DNA from: a virus
Length of the DNA: 18,929 bases
Virus genome (UHGV): UHGV-1353644
Direction: 5' to 3' (one strand)
Shown here: positions 2 through 18,873 of the stretch, in pieces
Layout of the letters: each line of letters starts with the position of its first letter
How positions within the stretch are numbered: the stretch's first letter is position 1
The notes under the pieces: generated by a model
The model's database searches: none
The model's input: only the letters and a program-made list of their open reading frames with translations
Told to the model about the DNA's origin: nothing
Program-made: the position numbers and the translations under genes

Positions 2-799
<798 letters not shown>

Positions 800-829: not shown

Positions 830-1486
830 ATGGCAGCACCTAGAATATCACTTTCGCCCTCTGGTATTCTGTTGGGTGTTCTAGATCGCTTGTTCAAAGA
901 TAACGCTACCGGGAAAGTTCTTGCTTCCCGGGTAGCTGTCGTAATTCTTTTGTTTATAATGGCGATTGTTTGGTATAGGGGAGATAGTTTCTTTGAGTAC
1001 TATAAGCAATCAAAGTATGAAACATACAGTGAAATTATTGAAAAGGAAAGAAACGCACGCTTTGAATCTGTCGCCCTGGAACAACTCCAGATAGTTCATA
1101 TATCATCTGAGGCAGACTTTAGTGCGGTGTATTCTTTCCGCCCTAAAAACTTAAACTATTTTGTCGATATTATAGCATACGAAGGAAAATTACCTTCAAC
1201 AATAAACGAAAAATCACTTGGAGGATATCCTGTTGATAAAACTATGGATGAATATGCAGTTCATTTAAATGGACGTCATTATTATTCTGACTCAAAATTT
1301 GCTTTTTTACCAACTAAAAAGCCTACTCCCGAAATAAACTACATGTACAGTTGTCCATATTTTAATTTGGATAATATCTATGCTGGAACAATAACCATGT
1401 ACTGGTATAGAAATGCTCATATAAGTAATGACCGCCTTGAATCAATATGTTCACAGGCGGCCAGAATATTAGGAAGGGCTAAATAA
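830..1486 (+). CDS. t: Holin t (218 aa)
   Basis: Strong SD AAGGAGG 7 nt upstream. Translation MAAPRISLSPSGILLGVLDRLFKDNATGKVLASRVAVVILLFIMAIVWYRGD... is near-identical to recalled T4 holin T, same length, single N-terminal TM segment and large C-terminal domain. Confidence 0.95.
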   Translation: MAAPRISLSPSGILLGVLDRLFKDNATGKVLASRVAVVILLFIMAIVWYRGDSFFEYYKQSKYETYSEIIEKERNARFESVALEQLQIVHISSEADFSAVYSFRPKNLNYFVDIIAYEGKLPSTINEKSLGGYPVDKTMDEYAVHLNGRHYYSDSKFAFLPTKKPTPEINYMYSCPYFNLDNIYAGTITMYWYRNAHISNDRLESICSQAARILGRAK

Positions 1487-12765: not shown

Positions 12766-12797
12766 AATTATACCACATCCTTGTGGTAAAGTAAACT
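12766..12797 (-). promoter_or_regulatory. T4 early-type promoter for rIIA.1-rIIA-rIIB, abutting the gp39 stop codon
   Basis: Minus strand: GTTTAC (complement of 12791-12796, overlapping the gp39 TAG by 1 nt), 18 nt ending ATGTGG, TATAAT (complement of 12767-12772). Confidence 0.6.
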
Positions 12798-14613
12798 ACT
12801 GGCTCATCCATTCTTTGCGAAGGTCAGCATTATCTCCCATGAGCATTTCAAAAAGCTCTTTCCAATTCTCAGGAAGTTTAACAACATCATATACTGGATT
12901 TTGAATCATCTCACGATATTCAGATTTTTCCAAAGAGCCAAGTCCTTTAATATAACGGATGCTATGTTTAGGTAGAGCATCTTTGGCACTCTCATATTCA
13001 GCGACTGTATAAAACCATTCTTGTTTTTTACCGACCTGAGCGATGATTACAGGAGTTTTGACAAAGCGAATTCGCCCCTGTTCAAACAGTTCTGGCCAAT
13101 TACTAAAAAATCCAAGCAGAGAAGGATAAATGCTTCCTAGACCATCATGGTCAGCATCAGTCATAATAGCAATATTACGATAATTCAAGTTTTCAGCTTT
13201 TTCACCAAGAACTAGACCAGTGATTGCGCAAATATCAAATAGTTCTTTGTTTTTAAGCATATCGGCATATGACATACCCCAGCTATTAAGAACTTTACCA
13301 CGCAATGGATAACCACCATGAAGTTCTTTATCGCGAACATCAATAAGATATCCGATAGCAGAATCACCCTCAGTTAAGAACAATGTAGTGTCAGCATCTT
13401 TACCACAAAGATTCGCTTTAATATGTTTATGAACCTTAGCTTTAGAAGCCTTTTTAGCTGCTTTAGTTTCTGCTGCTTTTTCTGCCGCCAATTTACGAGC
13501 TAATGCTGCTTCAATAATTGGCATCAAAATTGCTTCATTATTTAGAATAGCGCGTGAAATCTTTTTAGCATCAAGTTGAATATGACTACGAATTTCACCA
13601 AATGGAGAAGTCAAACGCTCTTTAGTTTGAGAATCAAATCGCATGTTTTTCATATCACGAACAAACATAACGATAGTCAAACATTCTTTAACACGTGCTT
13701 TAGTTACATCAATTTTGAACTTACGTTTGATTTGTGGAATAAGGTCTTCACAAATATCATCCATAACACAATCAATGTGATGGCCACCATTCTTAGTGTG
13801 AATGTTATTCACGTAAGTTAATTGACGAAAACCATCCGGTGAACGACCAACCGCAATAGAACAATTTTCTTGCTCTTGAACAATAGCATGCTCATCATAT
13901 TGGCGTGCATATTTCTTAAAATTACCCTGAACCTTTTTACCATTAAAGGTAAATTGAATATCAGGATAAACTACAGCAAGTGTCTGGAGACGATCTAGTG
14001 TAATGTCAAGATAAACTTGGGACAGCTCATTAGTTTCAAATGACATAAAATCAGGAATGAAAGTAACACGAGTTCCTTTCCATTTTCCAGGAATATCTTC
14101 CCATGATTTATTTTCCATGCCATTTGAACAACGAACTACAATATTATTTTGACCATCACCAGTTTCACCGACAAACATCACAGAAAAAATGTTTGTCAAA
14201 CTAGAACCAACACCGTTCATACCACCAGTGACGCGTTCTTTATCATCACCGAAGTTACCACCAGCTTTTGGAATAGTCCAAGCAGCTACCGGACCAGGAA
14301 TTTCTTCGCCGGTAGGTGTTTTAACCATCGCTTGTGGAATACCACGACCGTTATCTTCAACTGTTACTTGATTGTTTTTAATAGTAACATTAATTTTATT
14401 CGCGAATTTAAACTTAGTACGAATACCTTCATCTACTGAGTTATCGATAATTTCATCAATAAGCTTAACAAGACCAGGTACATACTGAACACTTTCCCAT
14501 TTACCAAACAGAAAGCGCTCATGCATTTCATTAGCGGAAGAGCCAATGTACATGCCGCTACGCTTTTTGATATGTTCAATATCGCTCAGAATTTTAATTT
14601 CATTCTTAATCAT
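12796..14613 (-). CDS. 39: DNA topoisomerase II large subunit gp39, unsplit GyrB-like form (605 aa from ATG)
   Basis: GHKL ATPase motif VEDNGRGIP, Toprim motifs LTEGDSA and DADHDG, and PLRGK. One continuous 605/606-aa frame, as in T2-type phages where genes 39 and 60 are fused. ATG at 14613 has SD GAGGA at good spacing (the track starts at GTG 14616). Confidence 0.95.
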   Translation of the reverse strand: MIKNEIKILSDIEHIKKRSGMYIGSSANEMHERFLFGKWESVQYVPGLVKLIDEIIDNSVDEGIRTKFKFANKINVTIKNNQVTVEDNGRGIPQAMVKTPTGEEIPGPVAAWTIPKAGGNFGDDKERVTGGMNGVGSSLTNIFSVMFVGETGDGQNNIVVRCSNGMENKSWEDIPGKWKGTRVTFIPDFMSFETNELSQVYLDITLDRLQTLAVVYPDIQFTFNGKKVQGNFKKYARQYDEHAIVQEQENCSIAVGRSPDGFRQLTYVNNIHTKNGGHHIDCVMDDICEDLIPQIKRKFKIDVTKARVKECLTIVMFVRDMKNMRFDSQTKERLTSPFGEIRSHIQLDAKKISRAILNNEAILMPIIEAALARKLAAEKAAETKAAKKASKAKVHKHIKANLCGKDADTTLFLTEGDSAIGYLIDVRDKELHGGYPLRGKVLNSWGMSYADMLKNKELFDICAITGLVLGEKAENLNYRNIAIMTDADHDGLGSIYPSLLGFFSNWPELFEQGRIRFVKTPVIIAQVGKKQEWFYTVAEYESAKDALPKHSIRYIKGLGSLEKSEYREMIQNPVYDVVKLPENWKELFEMLMGDNADLRKEWMSQ

Positions 14614-14640
14614 CACTTATCCTCGTTTGGTTTCGGGAAT

Positions 14641-15503: not shown

Positions 15504-15920
15504 TTATTCCTTAAAATGAGCTTTCAACATCTGATACAAAGACCATGCCTGTTCATTATTTTCAATAGTGACTTTCATTAAAGGAAAATCAGAAGATGTA
15601 TCAGTTACTGGTACAGGTTCTTCCTGCTCTTCGGCAGCCTGATATGGATTTCCCACTTCATCGAAGAACCCAGCTTCATTCGTGGAGAGCCAGATAAAGT
15701 TTTCATCAAGGATATCACCGCCTGTTGCGTATCCAACTGTGCCAGTAGATGTCACAATTTTAGTAGGACGCCCAAGATGGTCAACATCTAAAATTTTAAA
15801 AGGATGCATACCTAAACGCCGCGCATAGATTCCGTTATCAGTATGGTCTTTAATAAAATTTTCTTGAGCTTGTTTATTTTTAAATTGATACCATTTATTA
15901 ACTTCAAATTTAATAGCCAT
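15504..15920 (-). CDS. Hypothetical protein (138 aa from ATG), possibly goF-like by position
   Basis: ATG at 15920 preceded by SD GGAAGGA (the track uses an upstream TTG). Acidic central region. Size and position are close to recalled T4 goF; identity not verified. Confidence 0.55.
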
Positions 15921-16135
15921 TAATAAATTTCCTTCCAATAAGTTGTGCCATCTTCAGTAATTTCACGAAATACGCCATAAATTGGTTGTTTATCACCGAC
16001 TTTTTCATACACATAAACCGAAGTCAAGTGAGTAAACTTAACAGTGTGTTCCTTTTGAACTACTACCAAATCTGGGTCAAATAATACATCTTCAAATTCA
16101 TCATTAGTGCAATTCTGAACAATTTTACGTTTCAT
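15920..16135 (-). CDS. cef: Cef-like small protein (71 aa)
   Basis: Length 71 aa and position (between the goF-position gene and the motB side) agree with recalled T4 cef. SD GAGGAAA upstream. Sequence identity not verified. Confidence 0.45.
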
Positions 16136-16148
16136 TACAATTTCCTCA

Positions 16149-16418
16149 TTAATTGAACAGTGGAGTGATGCGTTTCAGAAGAGTAGCAGCACCTTTGGCG
16201 AATTTTACATCATGAAAAACAGTTTCTTCTTCCATTACAACACGAGCTTTAATGTTTTCGCAATCCCAATTTTTACGAACAATCTTCAAAAGCTGTAGTA
16301 AATCTTTACATTCAGCAATATCGATAACACATCCGCGAGAATCTTCCATTATCGCACGATAACCATAAGCCATACCATAATCGTTGAAAGATTGTTCGAT
16401 GATGATTAAGTTTTCCAT
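16149..16418 (-). CDS. Hypothetical protein (89 aa from ATG)
   Basis: ATG at 16418 preceded by SD GGAGAA, about 45 nt downstream of a promoter (the track uses an upstream TTG). Confidence 0.6.
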   Translation of the reverse strand: MENLIIIEQSFNDYGMAYGYRAIMEDSRGCVIDIAECKDLLQLLKIVRKNWDCENIKARVVMEEETVFHDVKFAKGAATLLKRITPLFN

Positions 16419-16460
16419 TTTATTCTCCAAGTTGTTTTCTGTATCAGTAGTTGATATTGA

Positions 16461-16515: not shown

Positions 16516-17004
16516 TTATGCATAGAGAGCATTTCTATAGTGTTTAATCCAACTTTCAGGAATGACTTTGTATGTTCCTAAAAATACCACGTTGTACAAC
16601 TTAACACCATCTTCTACCCATTGATCGGTAATGTATCCACACATGGCACGAGTATAAACAGCCTTTCCATCATCTGGGATGAATTTAAATTCACAAGGAG
16701 CAATGAACTTGATAGATTGACCGAGTTTCCACTTAAAGTCTACACCTACATGCGAAGTATCAATCGTCTCAATTCCTTTAGCGGGAACAGCTTTCAAAAA
16801 CGCAGATTCAAGAAATTTTGCGCGAACATAACCAAACTGAGGTTTAGACTTTCCATCTTTAGGAATGATACGAACTTTTACTTCAGAATCTTCATCTTTA
16901 ACACCATGCTTAAGCTGAATGCTTACAATTTCGACCAATTTTCCTGCTGCTTTAGAACGGGATTTATCAGATACACGAGCAATTTCACCAATATTAATAA
17001 TCAT
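16516..17004 (-). CDS. motB: MotB-like protein (162 aa)
   Basis: Length 162 aa and position (between the cef-like gene and dexA) agree with recalled T4 motB. Shares a C-terminal domain with the next ORF. Confidence 0.55.
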   Translation of the reverse strand: MIINIGEIARVSDKSRSKAAGKLVEIVSIQLKHGVKDEDSEVKVRIIPKDGKSKPQFGYVRAKFLESAFLKAVPAKGIETIDTSHVGVDFKWKLGQSIKFIAPCEFKFIPDDGKAVYTRAMCGYITDQWVEDGVKLYNVVFLGTYKVIPESWIKHYRNALYA

Positions 17005-17042
17005 AGTTATCTCTCACTTGTTAAAAAGATTTTATACTCCGC

Positions 17043-17079
17043 GGGACCATTATACTCTGGTCCCAAGAGTTTGTAAACT
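17043..17079 (-). promoter_or_regulatory. T4 early-type promoter upstream of the motB-like gene, with a 7-bp-stem hairpin overlapping the -10
   Basis: Minus strand: GTTTAC (complement of 17073-17078), 18 nt, TATAAT (complement of 17049-17054). Inverted repeat GGGACCA / TGGTCCC (17043-17049 and 17058-17064) places the -10 in the loop. Confidence 0.55.
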
Positions 17080-17080
17080 A

Positions 17081-17623
17081 TTAATTCAAAATAGCTACTA
17101 CTGCACTACGAGGTACTACGCTAAAATCACCTGCATGAACAACGTTCAGAAGTTCAACACCATCTTCAATCCACTGGTCTGTTACCCAACCACAGACCGA
17201 AATAAATGGGGTCTTAATAGCTACTGCACGAGTTAGAAGGTCGGTAGGGCCTTGTTCTTCAACTTCTTGGAACAGGATGAACTCATCTTCATAAACCAGG
17301 TTTTTCTTTATTTTGTTATTATCTAACCGGCGACCGTGGATGACGTAAGATTTGTCAAACCACTGACTTTTGGTAAATTCTTCAACAATAAATTCGCCTT
17401 CGCCAAAAACATCAGTCAAAATTTTATGGCCGGAAATCAAGGCATTAGTTTTAATTTTAGGTTCAACCAGTTTGTAGGTTTTGCCGATTTCAATAACGGT
17501 AGTCATAGTAGGTTCCTTAATTTCCAGTGGTTTAACAGGGCATACATAAATGCTTACAACATCAAAATCAGTCAATTTAGCTGCTGGATTCGATGTGTAT
17601 TCAGGATTATAATTAAATTTCAT
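17081..17623 (-). CDS. Hypothetical protein (180 aa), paralogous to the motB-like ORF in its C-terminal domain
   Basis: C-terminus VCGWVTDQWIEDGVELLNVVHAGDFSVVPRS aligns with MCGYITDQWVEDGVKLYNVVFLGTYKVIPES of the 162-aa ORF. Confidence 0.65.
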   Translation of the reverse strand: MKFNYNPEYTSNPAAKLTDFDVVSIYVCPVKPLEIKEPTMTTVIEIGKTYKLVEPKIKTNALISGHKILTDVFGEGEFIVEEFTKSQWFDKSYVIHGRRLDNNKIKKNLVYEDEFILFQEVEEQGPTDLLTRAVAIKTPFISVCGWVTDQWIEDGVELLNVVHAGDFSVVPRSAVVAILN

Positions 17624-17625
17624 AA

Positions 17626-18126
17626 TTATCTCATTTCAATAAAATCTACAAGTTCAGCATGGGATTTACGGAACATTACTTGATGCCCACCAATGATAAC
17701 TTCATCTTCAGGAACTTCATATATAGCAAGATAAAATCCTTTAGAAGCTAATTCTTCACGCTCTTCTCGTGTGAACCATCTCATCATATCATATTCACTA
17801 GCGAAAGCAAAATGATAAAGAGCTATAAACCATCCTGGAATATGATATTCTACTCCAACATAATCTTTCTTGAACTTAGTATTAATTACTATATTAGCGT
17901 TTTTAACTAATAGTTTATCTTCATGTGGTAAAGGAATTCTTTTATTATTATCGCTATGATGCATAAAATTAGGTCTGTCATAACCTACGTGTAATAGCCA
18001 CTCTTCGCTCCATGAATCTATTATACTCCTGTACGGCGTTATTTGAACACAAAGATTTCGACGTATTGTTATAGCATCTTCATAATCAAGAATACTAAAC
18101 GATGATTCAACACGATAAATTTTCAT
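17626..18126 (-). CDS. Hypothetical protein (166 aa from ATG)
   Basis: ATG at 18126 preceded by SD GAGGATAA, downstream of an early promoter (the track extends to 18165, which would cover the promoter). Confidence 0.65.
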   Translation of the reverse strand: MKIYRVESSFSILDYEDAITIRRNLCVQITPYRSIIDSWSEEWLLHVGYDRPNFMHHSDNNKRIPLPHEDKLLVKNANIVINTKFKKDYVGVEYHIPGWFIALYHFAFASEYDMMRWFTREEREELASKGFYLAIYEVPEDEVIIGGHQVMFRKSHAELVDFIEMR

Positions 18127-18152
18127 TTTATTATCCTCAGTAGCTATGGTGT

Positions 18153-18184
18153 TATAATACCACAACTAACCGAGGAAGTAAACA
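18153..18184 (-). promoter_or_regulatory. T4 early-type promoter directly after the dexA stop
   Basis: Minus strand: AAAAAGTT, GTTTAC (complement of 18178-18183), 18 nt ending TTGTGG, TATTAT (complement of 18154-18159). Confidence 0.6.
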
Positions 18185-18189
18185 ACTTT

Positions 18190-18873
18190 TTATCGTTTTG
18201 TTGGAAGAGATAGAGGATCGCAATCTTCCTCTGACGGAGCATCTTCAAGACCCATAGCGTATCGTAAAGCATACTTCATCATCAGAATGTCTTTCGCGCA
18301 GTCATGAATAGAATCATGCGCAACGAATCCATCTAAAGTTCCTTTTGGAAGAGGACACGTGGTCATATCACGAACAAGTAGAAGTGCTTCAATTCTGGTA
18401 CGAATATCACGCTGATTCCAGAACTTACATGGTTCTAACTTAAATGTGTCAAGCTCATTTTCGGAAACGCCATTAAGACGTTGAATATCACGAATGAGAT
18501 CGACTAAAATTGGAAAATCAAACGACATTCCACGGCACCAGCCTTGAGATTTCCAAGGATCGATATTATGTGCATTGATGTAATCATTAAATTTCGCAAT
18601 ACCATCGATAGTGCTTACATCTTCATCGGATGGTGCAATATTTTTTCGAGCTTCAGGGGATTGATTCTTCCACCATTCAATAGTGCTTTTAGTAAAAAGA
18701 CGGTGTCCTTTTTGGCTTTTCAAATCAAATTTGATTTTAATGCCACGTGAAACTAATTCATCAAATGTTTCAACGACTTCTGGATTAGGGTCAAAAGCAA
18801 TTACAGCCAAATCAATAACAGCTGCTTTTTCACCACTTCCCATTGTTTCAAAATCTATAATAAAATCAAACAT
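18190..18873 (-). CDS. dexA: Exonuclease A DexA (DEDDh 3'-5' exonuclease, 227 aa)
   Basis: Exo I motif FIIDFETMG near the N-terminus and Exo III motif FVAHDSIHDCAKD near the C-terminus (DnaQ-like DEDDh). Length 227 aa as recalled for T4 dexA; SD GCGAGGAAAA upstream. Confidence 0.85.
   Translation of the reverse strand: MFDFIIDFETMGSGEKAAVIDLAVIAFDPNPEVVETFDELVSRGIKIKFDLKSQKGHRLFTKSTIEWWKNQSPEARKNIAPSDEDVSTIDGIAKFNDYINAHNIDPWKSQGWCRGMSFDFPILVDLIRDIQRLNGVSENELDTFKLEPCKFWNQRDIRTRIEALLLVRDMTTCPLPKGTLDGFVAHDSIHDCAKDILMMKYALRYAMGLEDAPSEEDCDPLSLPTKR

What the first reader, a model, noticed from the sequence alone, without database searches (positions are those of the whole stretch)
16516..17623. 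MotB-like gene and its neighbour share a conserved C-terminal domain (tandem paralogues)
The 162-aa and 180-aa ORFs are adjacent and share a clearly homologous C-terminal segment of about 35 aa (CG(Y/W)(I/V)TDQW(V/I)EDGV.L.NVV..G...V(I/V)P.S) with divergent N-termini. This suggests a duplicated DNA- or protein-binding module with diversified partner domains.
Basis: seen in the sequence. Interest (0 to 1): 0.45.

Follow-up and report, generated by a model that had tools for sequence, protein, structure and literature searches.

The report
MotB and MotB.1 share a C-terminal barrel
Two neighbouring early genes of this T4-like phage (motB and its motB.1-type neighbour) do share a homologous C-terminal domain behind unrelated N-terminal domains, but this was already published for phage T4 and its relatives in 2021, so the finding is real but ordinary.

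Summary
The 162-aa ORF (16516-17004, minus strand) is MotB (Pfam PF17613, E 8e-109). The 180-aa ORF (17081-17623, minus strand) occupies the motB.1 slot between motB.2 and motB. They share 18/32 identical residues (BLASTP E 2e-12; z = 16.5 against shuffles; profile-profile probability 98-99%). DNA identity is 57%, with third codon positions near random, so the duplication is old.

AlphaFold2 models indicate that the conserved ~36 residues are strands 2-5 of a five-stranded small beta-barrel. Strand 1 also aligns, and MotB carries an 18-residue longer first hairpin. The N-terminal domains show no significant similarity. MotB has a basic KOW-like barrel. The 180-aa protein has a disordered leader and an acidic barrel weakly matching a GoF-family PHROG.

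A profile search of 1.84 billion proteins found about 28 real cluster representatives, all small; all traced sources are T4-like phages. They have many N-terminal architectures, including intermediates.

The relationship was published (Viruses 2021, PMC7827196). That paper's homologue table lists ECML134_009, which is 94% identical to this 180-aa protein.

My additions are small. The fold looks SH3-like rather than the published OB-fold. The shared module is acidic throughout the family. Verdict: already known, low interest.

The parts
16516..17004 (-). motB gene (162 aa), modifier of transcription / DNA-binding early protein
   Evidence: Pfam PF17613 over the full length, E 8.2e-109. phrog_1671, E 9e-77. 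Highly similar along its whole length to T4 MotB read from L001 (by inspection, no percentage was computed). Same position as in T4.
16801..17004 (-). MotB N-terminal domain (aa 1-68): basic KOW-like five-stranded barrel with the invariant V-S-x-x-S-R-S-K-x-x-G loop
16738..16800 (-). MotB inter-domain linker (aa 69-89), predicted disordered and variable in length across the family
   Evidence: pLDDT below 50 for residues 70-85. Large indels at this position in alignment A1.
16519..16737 (-). MotB C-terminal domain (aa 90-162): five-stranded small barrel with a long first hairpin
   Evidence: AF2 strands 97-108, 116-131, 134-141, 144-149, a 3-10 turn at 150-152, then 153-156; pLDDT 90-96.
16540..16647 (-). 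Conserved shared core in MotB (aa 120-155)
   Evidence: BLASTP and hhalign. The invariant residues D127, W129, G133, N138, V140 and G143 across all architectures lie here.
17081..17623 (-). 180-aa gene in the motB.1 position (MotB.1-type paralogue, phrog_2333)
   Evidence: phrog_2333 over the full length, E 6e-82. It lies between the motB.2 homologue and motB, as T4 motB.1 does. 63% identity to T4 MotB.1 over its last 80 residues only. P0002 (phage ECML-134, ECML134_009) is 94% identical.
17495..17623 (-). N-terminal leader of the 180-aa protein (aa 1-43), predicted disordered, carrying the conserved motif D-F-D-V-V-S-I-Y-V-x-P-V-K-P-L-E
   Evidence: pLDDT below 50 for residues 1-41. D19, D21, P32 and L33 are invariant and Y26 nearly invariant in the family. 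The same motif sits directly before the C-terminal domain in RB68 MotB.1 and in KOW-type relatives.
17249..17494 (-). Middle barrel domain of the 180-aa protein (aa 44-125): acidic beta-barrel with an inserted helix, GoF/LSm-like
   Evidence: AF2 gives strand 49-52, helix 60-73, strands 77-85, 92-99 and 104-111, helix 112-117, strand 118-120. Weak hit to phrog_622, E 2.7e-4, residues 44-125; the window's GoF matches this same PHROG at E 1.9e-40. Net charge -3.
17084..17248 (-). C-terminal domain of the 180-aa protein (aa 126-180): the same five-stranded barrel with a short first hairpin
   Evidence: AF2 strands 133-137, 142-153, 156-163, 166-171, a 3-10 turn, then 175-177. MAFFT and greedy hhalign also align strand 1, with an 18-residue gap relative to MotB.
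17093..17200 (-). Conserved shared core in the 180-aa protein (aa 142-177)
   Evidence: Net charge -4.
17049..17077 (-). Sigma-70-like promoter (TTTACA, 17 nt spacer, TATAAT; 11 of 12 matches) in the 76-nt gap between the two genes, directly upstream of motB
   Evidence: Best consensus match in the scanned region. This is a pattern match only, and the total number of matches in the region equals the shuffle expectation.

Best explanation
The two ORFs are the MotB / MotB.1-type paralogue pair of a T4-like phage (Tequatrovirus, early region dexA-motB.2-motB.1-motB-cef-goF). They descend from an old tandem duplication followed by exchange of N-terminal domains. What they share is a complete small five-stranded beta-barrel. 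It is about 50 aa in the 180-aa protein and about 70 aa in MotB, because MotB's first hairpin is 18 residues longer. Only strands 2-5 keep obvious sequence similarity. I read the barrel as SH3-like (a beta meander, then a 3-10 turn before the last strand). Proposed mechanism (inferred, not shown): the acidic, strongly conserved C-terminal barrel is a common docking module that takes both proteins to the same partner or nucleoprotein complex. The N-terminal domain supplies the specific activity. In MotB that is a basic KOW-like barrel, which is the more likely source of MotB's published non-specific DNA binding. In the 180-aa protein it is an acidic GoF/LSm-like barrel preceded by a conserved short linear motif. 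Confidence by step: identity and homology about 0.95; SH3-like fold about 0.7; docking-module mechanism about 0.4.
Confidence: 0.55

Rival explanations
1. The shared C-terminal domain is itself the nucleic-acid-binding domain (the published OB-fold / cold-shock-like assignment). On this view both proteins bind DNA or RNA through it, and the N-domains modulate specificity.
Confidence: 0.25
2. The shared barrel is a homo- or hetero-oligomerisation module that lets MotB and MotB.1-type proteins pair with themselves or with each other.
For: T4 MotB.1 migrates as both monomer and dimer in non-reducing SDS-PAGE (PMC12152347). The genes are adjacent and both are early. A Cys precedes the conserved G-W/Y in both window proteins.
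Against: That Cys is not conserved: T4 and RB68 MotB.1 have G or S, and many MotB proteins have S, A or G. The authors report AlphaFold3 homomultimer models with ipTM below 0.3. Many phages carry only one of the two genes (and Table S6 seen).
Confidence: 0.15
3. The similarity reflects recent gene conversion or recombination between neighbours, or chance or low-complexity sequence, rather than an old duplication under selection.
For: The genes are adjacent, and T4-like genomes recombine freely. Hybrid and deletion forms exist, for example P0249, a 43-aa fusion of the MotB.2 N-terminus to the MotB.1 C-terminus.
Against: DNA identity is only 57%, with third codon positions at 11/32, so conversion is not recent. 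Against shuffles z = 16.5. The residue composition is diverse. The two CTD types are each conserved and distinct across hundreds of phages.
Confidence: 0.03

Closest known systems
T4 MotB / MotB.1 shared C-terminal domain (Patterson-West et al., Viruses 2021, PMC7827196)
   Same: This is exactly the relationship in the finding. MotB and the gene immediately upstream share a conserved CTD with different NTDs, and duplication was proposed. Four categories of NTD were described. The paper's homologue table (Table S4) lists ECML134_009, which is 94% identical to the window's 180-aa protein.
   Different: The window's upstream gene is not the T4 MotB.1 type. Only its last 80 residues align with T4 MotB.1 (63% identity). 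Its N-terminal 100 residues are a different arrangement, with the motif first and then a barrel. The paper calls the CTD an OB-fold, whereas my models look SH3-like.
GoF / MotB.1 / Frd.2 LSm-like N-terminal barrels of Tevenvirinae (Kim et al., CSBJ 2025, PMC12152347)
   Same: The middle domain of the 180-aa protein (aa 44-125) is a predicted five-stranded barrel with a helix. It weakly hits phrog_622, the PHROG that the window's GoF matches best (E 2.7e-4).
   Different: BLASTP against the T4 MotB.1 NTD finds nothing. hhalign against the window's GoF is not significant. In this protein the barrel is preceded by a 43-residue disordered leader.
KOW / Tudor / chromo / PWWP SH3-like small beta-barrels (for example Spt5 KOW domains, 53BP1 tandem Tudor, EF-P domain I)
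   Different: Sequence identity is 5-24%, with no profile-level sequence link. No aromatic-cage or peptide-binding function has been tested. This is a resemblance of fold, not membership.

Membership tests
Pfam PF17613 (motB, modifier of transcription) | Full-length match to the 162-position model above the gathering score of 25 bits | tested here: met
   The 162-aa ORF scores 361 bits over positions 1-162 of 162. The 180-aa ORF scores 34.1 bits, above the cut-off, but covers only profile positions 120-153. It is therefore a member at the level of the C-terminal module only.
T4 MotB.1 (positional orthologue) | Gene located between motB.2 and motB on the same strand | tested here: met
   The window order is dexA, 179-aa motB.2 homologue, 180-aa ORF, motB, matching T4 and RB68.
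T4 MotB.1 (positional orthologue) | MotB.1-type C-terminal domain (PTDLL...GWVTDQWIEDGVELLNVVHAG..SVVPRSAV) | tested here: met
   63% identity to T4 MotB.1 over residues 103-180. 79% identity to RB68 MotB.1 over residues 126-180.
T4 MotB.1 (positional orthologue) | T4-type N-terminal domain (MotB.1 NTD residues 1-82) | tested here: not met
   There is no BLASTP similarity before residue 103. tblastn against T4 covers only residues 103-180. The protein belongs to a different N-terminal architecture class.
GoF/MotB.1/Frd.2 LSm-like fold family | N-terminal bent five-stranded antiparallel barrel related to GoF | tested here: inconclusive
   phrog_622 hit at E 2.7e-4 for aa 44-125, and an AF2 barrel with a helix at pLDDT about 75. 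However, hhalign against the window's GoF is not significant.
KOW domain (PF00467) for the MotB N-domain | Match to the KOW motif model above its gathering score | tested here: inconclusive
OB-fold, cold-shock DNA-binding-like (SCOPe b.40.4.5), as published for the MotB CTD | Beta1-beta2-beta3, then an alpha helix, then beta4-beta5 topology, with structural neighbours among OB-fold proteins | tested here: inconclusive

The most novel reading that the evidence does not exclude
The shared C-terminal barrel is not an OB-fold DNA binder. It is an acidic SH3-like docking module, common to a whole set of T4-like early proteins, that brings interchangeable N-terminal heads (KOW-like, LSm-like, single or double barrels) to one host or phage partner. 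The conserved short motif [FYH]-[IV]-x-D-x-D-[VI]-x-S-M-Y-x-T-P usually lies just before the barrel, but in this window's protein it has been moved ahead of an inserted barrel. It may be a second, peptide-type interaction element, possibly binding the barrel itself.
Probability: 0.25. Interest if true: 0.35.

Novelty: already known. Interest (0 to 1): 0.12.

Why it matters
It matters little as a discovery. The MotB/MotB.1 shared C-terminal domain and its duplication origin were published in 2021, and a 94%-identical orthologue of this window's 180-aa protein appears in that paper's homologue table.

It has modest value for people working on T4 early-gene function, in four respects:
- The predicted fold of the shared domain looks SH3-like rather than OB.
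- The module is acidic throughout the family while MotB's N-domain is basic. This points experiments on DNA binding to the N-domain and experiments on partner binding to the C-domain.
- A search of 1.84 billion proteins shows that the module is confined to about 28 clusters of small proteins; every member I traced to a source is from a T4-like phage.
- Intermediates and permuted architectures document active domain shuffling at this locus.

Tried and rejected
- **Third copy in the window.** A six-frame Smith-Waterman search found none.
- **Recent gene conversion.** Rejected: DNA identity is 57% and third codon positions match at 11/32.
- **Hidden homology between the N-domains, or internal duplication (N-domain vs C-domain).** hhalign gave probabilities of 1% or less for all pairs.
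- **Sequence link of the CTD profile to any solved structure.** No hits even at E 10.
- **Module in non-phage proteins.** Eight long proteins (361-862 aa) hit the CTD profile at E 6e-6 to 1e-3 in 4-7 short stretches each. They include an Ig-repeat protein, a MucBP/LPXTG surface protein and proteins with phage tail domains. I rejected them as spurious matches to repetitive proteins, from the match pattern and Pfam content, without inspecting their sequences.
- **afdb50 fold search.** The library was not available.
- **Exposure of the conserved D-x-W-x-E stripe.** I considered arguing that it is solvent-exposed, like a Tudor aromatic cage. I dropped this because I had no coordinates, and the i/i+2 pattern puts W129 on the same face as hydrophobic I125.
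- **hhalign of the 180-aa family against the window's GoF.** Not significant, so the GoF-like assignment rests on one weak PHROG hit plus the model.

Full report
**What the window is.** The window comes from a T4-like phage of the genus Tequatrovirus. The 3.4 kb around the finding matches 833 phage records, 424 of them over at least 80% of the query, and the best matches are 94-95.5% identical. All genes in this stretch lie on the minus strand. In transcription order they are:
- dexA, 18190-18873, 227 aa
- a motB.2 homologue, 17626-18165
- the 180-aa ORF, 17081-17623
- motB, 16516-17004, 162 aa
- a 93-aa ORF, 16149-16430
- cef, 15920-16135
- goF, 15504-15938

In T4 the order is dexA, motB.2, motB.1, motB, cef, goF. 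The 180-aa ORF therefore occupies the motB.1 slot.

**Check of the observation.**
- BLASTP aligns MotB 120-151 with residues 142-173 of the 180-aa protein: 18/32 identical, 26/32 positive, no gaps, E 2e-12.
- The Smith-Waterman score is 115. Two thousand shuffles give a mean of 30.3, sd 5.1 and maximum 60, so z = 16.5.
- I built family alignments from database homologues: 66 MotB sequences at 41-96% identity (A1), and 54 relatives of the 180-aa protein at 75-95% identity (A2).
- Profile-profile comparison of A1 and A2 gives probability 98.2% and E 5.8e-14 over 36 columns, MotB 120-155 = 180-aa 142-177. With domain-only profiles the figures are 99.0% and E 9e-18.
- Pfam's motB model hits the 180-aa protein above its gathering score (34.1 bits against 25), but only over profile positions 120-153.
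- At the DNA level the two segments are 55/96 identical. Matches by codon position are 20, 24 and 11 of 32. The third positions are close to random, so this is an old divergence held by selection on the protein, not recent gene conversion.
- No further copy exists in the window in any frame.

**What the shared segment is structurally.**
- *MotB model.* AlphaFold2 gives mean pLDDT 82, and 90-96 in the C-terminal domain. It shows two five-stranded barrels joined by a disordered linker (residues 70-85). The N-domain has strands 8-11, 23-30, 41-46, 56-61 and 65-67. The C-domain has strands 97-108, 116-131, 134-141 and 144-149, a 3-10 turn at 150-152, then strand 153-156.
- *Model of the 180-aa protein.* Mean pLDDT is 65, and 74-81 over most of the domains. 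It shows a disordered leader (1-41), a barrel with an inserted helix (49-120), and a C-domain with strands 133-137, 142-153, 156-163 and 166-171, a 3-10 turn, then strand 175-177.
- *Interpretation.* The conserved ~36 residues are therefore the second half of strand 2 through strand 5 of a five-stranded barrel. They are not a fold of their own.
- *Strand 1.* MAFFT on the isolated C-domains also aligns strand 1: MotB K-L-G-Q-S-I-K-F-I-A-P against L-L-T-R-A-V-A-I-K-T-P, with an 18-residue gap where MotB's first hairpin is longer. Greedy hhalign gives the same 52-column alignment.
- *Intermediates.* P0230, P0237 and P0241 have the MotB.1-type 'DPTDLL' strand 1 followed by a long MotB-like hairpin. 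This supports homology of the whole domain.

- Spt5 and NusG KOW domains
- 53BP1, ERCC6L2 and PHF19 Tudor domains
- PWWP and chromo domains
- PsaE and NdhS

**The N-terminal domains.** They are not detectably related to each other or to the C-domain. hhalign probabilities are 1% or less for all pairs.
- *MotB.* The N-domain carries the invariant V-S-x-x-S-R-S-K-x-x-G loop. It is KOW-like: distant family members P0245 and P0257 pass Pfam KOW's gathering score at that position.
- *The 180-aa protein.* It matches phrog_2333 over its full length. Residues 44-125 weakly hit phrog_622 (E 2.7e-4), the PHROG that the window's own GoF matches best (E 1.9e-40). This fits the 2025 report that MotB.1, GoF and Frd.2 have LSm-like N-terminal barrels.
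- *Difference from T4 MotB.1.* Only residues 103-180 align with T4 MotB.1, at 63% identity. The first ~100 residues are a different arrangement.

**How widely the module occurs.** I searched a profile of the C-domain (A4, 28 sequences from both families) against 1.84 billion cluster representatives. It found only 36 proteins at E up to 1e-3. Eight are long multi-domain or repeat-containing proteins that match in 4-7 short stretches each (for example an Ig-repeat protein, a MucBP/LPXTG surface protein and phage-tail-domain proteins); I judge these spurious. The other 28 are small proteins of 43-251 aa. Every family member whose source I traced, through source names, tblastn of the phage collection and BFVD structural neighbours, comes from a T4-like phage or an assembly likely to contain one. 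Most of the new representatives carry no source annotation. Their architectures are:
- KOW + long-hairpin C-domain: MotB itself.
- KOW + the motif [FYH]-[IV]-x-D-x-D-[VI]-x-S-M-Y-x-T-P + MotB.1-type C-domain with a short or long hairpin: P0236, P0237, P0241, P0244, P0246, P0247. P0235 is the same but lacks the motif.
- LSm-like barrel + C-domain: T4 MotB.1, P0234.
- Barrel + motif + C-domain: RB68 MotB.1, P0242.
- Motif + barrel + C-domain: this window's protein, P0231, P0240.
- Two-barrel forms of 246-251 aa: P0233, P0239, P0078, P0096. The one whose context I looked up (P0096, 249 aa) lies in the same slot between motB.2 and motB.
- Fragments such as P0249, a 43-aa fusion of the MotB.2 N-terminus to the last 28 residues of the MotB.1-type C-domain.

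Phage RB68 carries three module genes in tandem, of 169, 157 and 139 aa. Across all architectures D127, W129, G133, N138, V140 and G143 (MotB numbering) are invariant.

**Charge.** The shared core has a net charge of 0 to -6 across the 23 aligned family members. It is negative in 21 of them and never positive. The mean is -2.0 in the MotB family and -4.1 in the family of the 180-aa protein. MotB's N-domain is +5 (family mean +4.2). The whole 180-aa protein is -7.

**What is already known.**
- Patterson-West et al. [quoted passage not shown] They say one gene may have arisen by duplication of the other. They sort 102 homologues into four categories by NTD.
- Their Table S4 lists ECML134_009. 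That protein is P0002, which is 94% identical to this window's 180-aa protein.
- MotB binds DNA non-specifically, copurifies with H-NS and StpA, alters H-NS footprints, is toxic when overproduced, and doubles burst size.
- Deleting motB.1 gives no phenotype. MotB.1 runs as both monomer and dimer in non-reducing SDS-PAGE.
- The 2018 MotB paper (PMC6070864) contains no domain-truncation experiments, and I found none in the passages I read from the other two papers.

**Most likely mechanism.** This is inferred, not shown. The basic charge that would explain non-specific DNA binding lies in MotB's N-domain. The shared barrel is acidic and far more conserved than anything else in these proteins. 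It is attached to at least five unrelated N-terminal arrangements. I therefore think the C-terminal barrel is a common docking module for one partner or complex, and that the N-domains supply the variable activity. I put this at about 0.4. The main rival is the published view that the C-domain is the nucleic-acid-binding domain, at about 0.25. Oligomerisation is at about 0.15. Truncation gel-shifts and barrel-only pull-downs would decide between them.

**Verdict.** The finding is already in the literature for this very protein family, including a near-identical orthologue of the 180-aa protein. My refinements are incremental: the true extent of the domain, an SH3-like rather than OB fold, acidity of the module, intermediates, and a permuted linear motif. 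Interest is low.

Noticed in passing
window 17518-17575 (aa 17-35 of the 180-aa protein); L002 2162-2671 (RB68 MotB.1, aa 96-113): A conserved short motif, roughly [FYH]-[IV]-x-D-x-D-[VI]-x-S-M-Y-x-T-P-x-x-P-[LI], lies in predicted disordered sequence. In RB68 MotB.1 and in KOW-type relatives (P0236, P0237, P0241, P0244, P0246, P0247) it sits directly before the C-terminal barrel. In this window's protein, and in P0231, P0233 and P0240, it sits at the N-terminus, ahead of an intervening barrel. MotB proper lacks it: 0 of 103 sequences matched a strict regular expression.
   Followed up: partly
L003 2501-3250; proteins P0078, P0081, P0095, P0096, P0239: Variants of the 180-aa protein with 246-250 aa carry about 70 extra residues (another barrel-like domain) inserted after the shared MK/MN...P N-terminus. 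The one whose context I checked (P0096) occupies the same slot between motB.2 and motB. The 180-aa form therefore looks like an in-frame deletion derivative of these, or they look like insertion derivatives of it.
   Followed up: partly
protein P0249 (43 aa): Its sequence, MKIYRVESSFSILDYEDGVELLNVVHAGDFSVVPRSAVVAILN, joins the N-terminus of MotB.2 to the last 28 residues of the MotB.1-type barrel. It is a deletion fusion across the two genes, comparable to the 29-aa RB69 peptide noted in PMC7827196.
   Followed up: no
window 16149-16430 (-): A 93-aa ORF (phrog_3720, unknown function) lies between motB and cef. T4 has only a 170-nt gap at this position. RB68 has a near-identical ORF (L002 3742-4023).
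   Followed up: partly
L002 2162-3646 (phage RB68): RB68 carries three module-bearing genes in tandem: motB.1 (169 aa), motB (157 aa) and a 139-aa MotB-like gene. The array size therefore varies between phages.
   Followed up: partly
window 17049-17077 (-): A near-consensus sigma-70 promoter (TTTACA, 17 nt spacer, TATAAT; 11 of 12 matches) lies in the 76-nt gap between the two paralogues, so motB may have its own early promoter. The 180-aa gene starts 3 nt after the stop codon of the upstream gene.
   Followed up: no
window 12796-14616 (-): The topoisomerase II large subunit (gene 39) is a single 606-aa ORF with GyrB, ATPase and TOPRIM_C domains. As I recall, T4 splits this protein into genes 39 and 60; I did not check that here. 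The ORF lister starts this ORF at a GTG codon.
   Followed up: no
window 8-799 (+) and 830-1486 (+): The first 1 kb of the window has 47% G+C, against about 35% elsewhere. It encodes a 263-aa Gp38 tail-fibre adhesin (Pfam GP38, E 5e-72), followed by the T holin, both on the plus strand.
   Followed up: partly
window 17626-18165 (-): The ORF lister gives the motB.2 homologue as 179 aa from a TTG codon. T4's annotation (166 aa) and the fusion peptide P0249 both begin at the internal ATG (MKIYRVESS...). The real start is probably 17626-18126.
   Followed up: no
proteins P0250 and P0253: Pfam's motB model (PF17613) scores 29-34 bits, above its 25-bit gathering score, on two long non-MotB proteins: a MucBP/LPXTG surface protein (P0253) and a protein with a phage tail tip domain (P0250). 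Both matched the CTD profile in several short stretches. These are probably false positives of the model.
   Followed up: no
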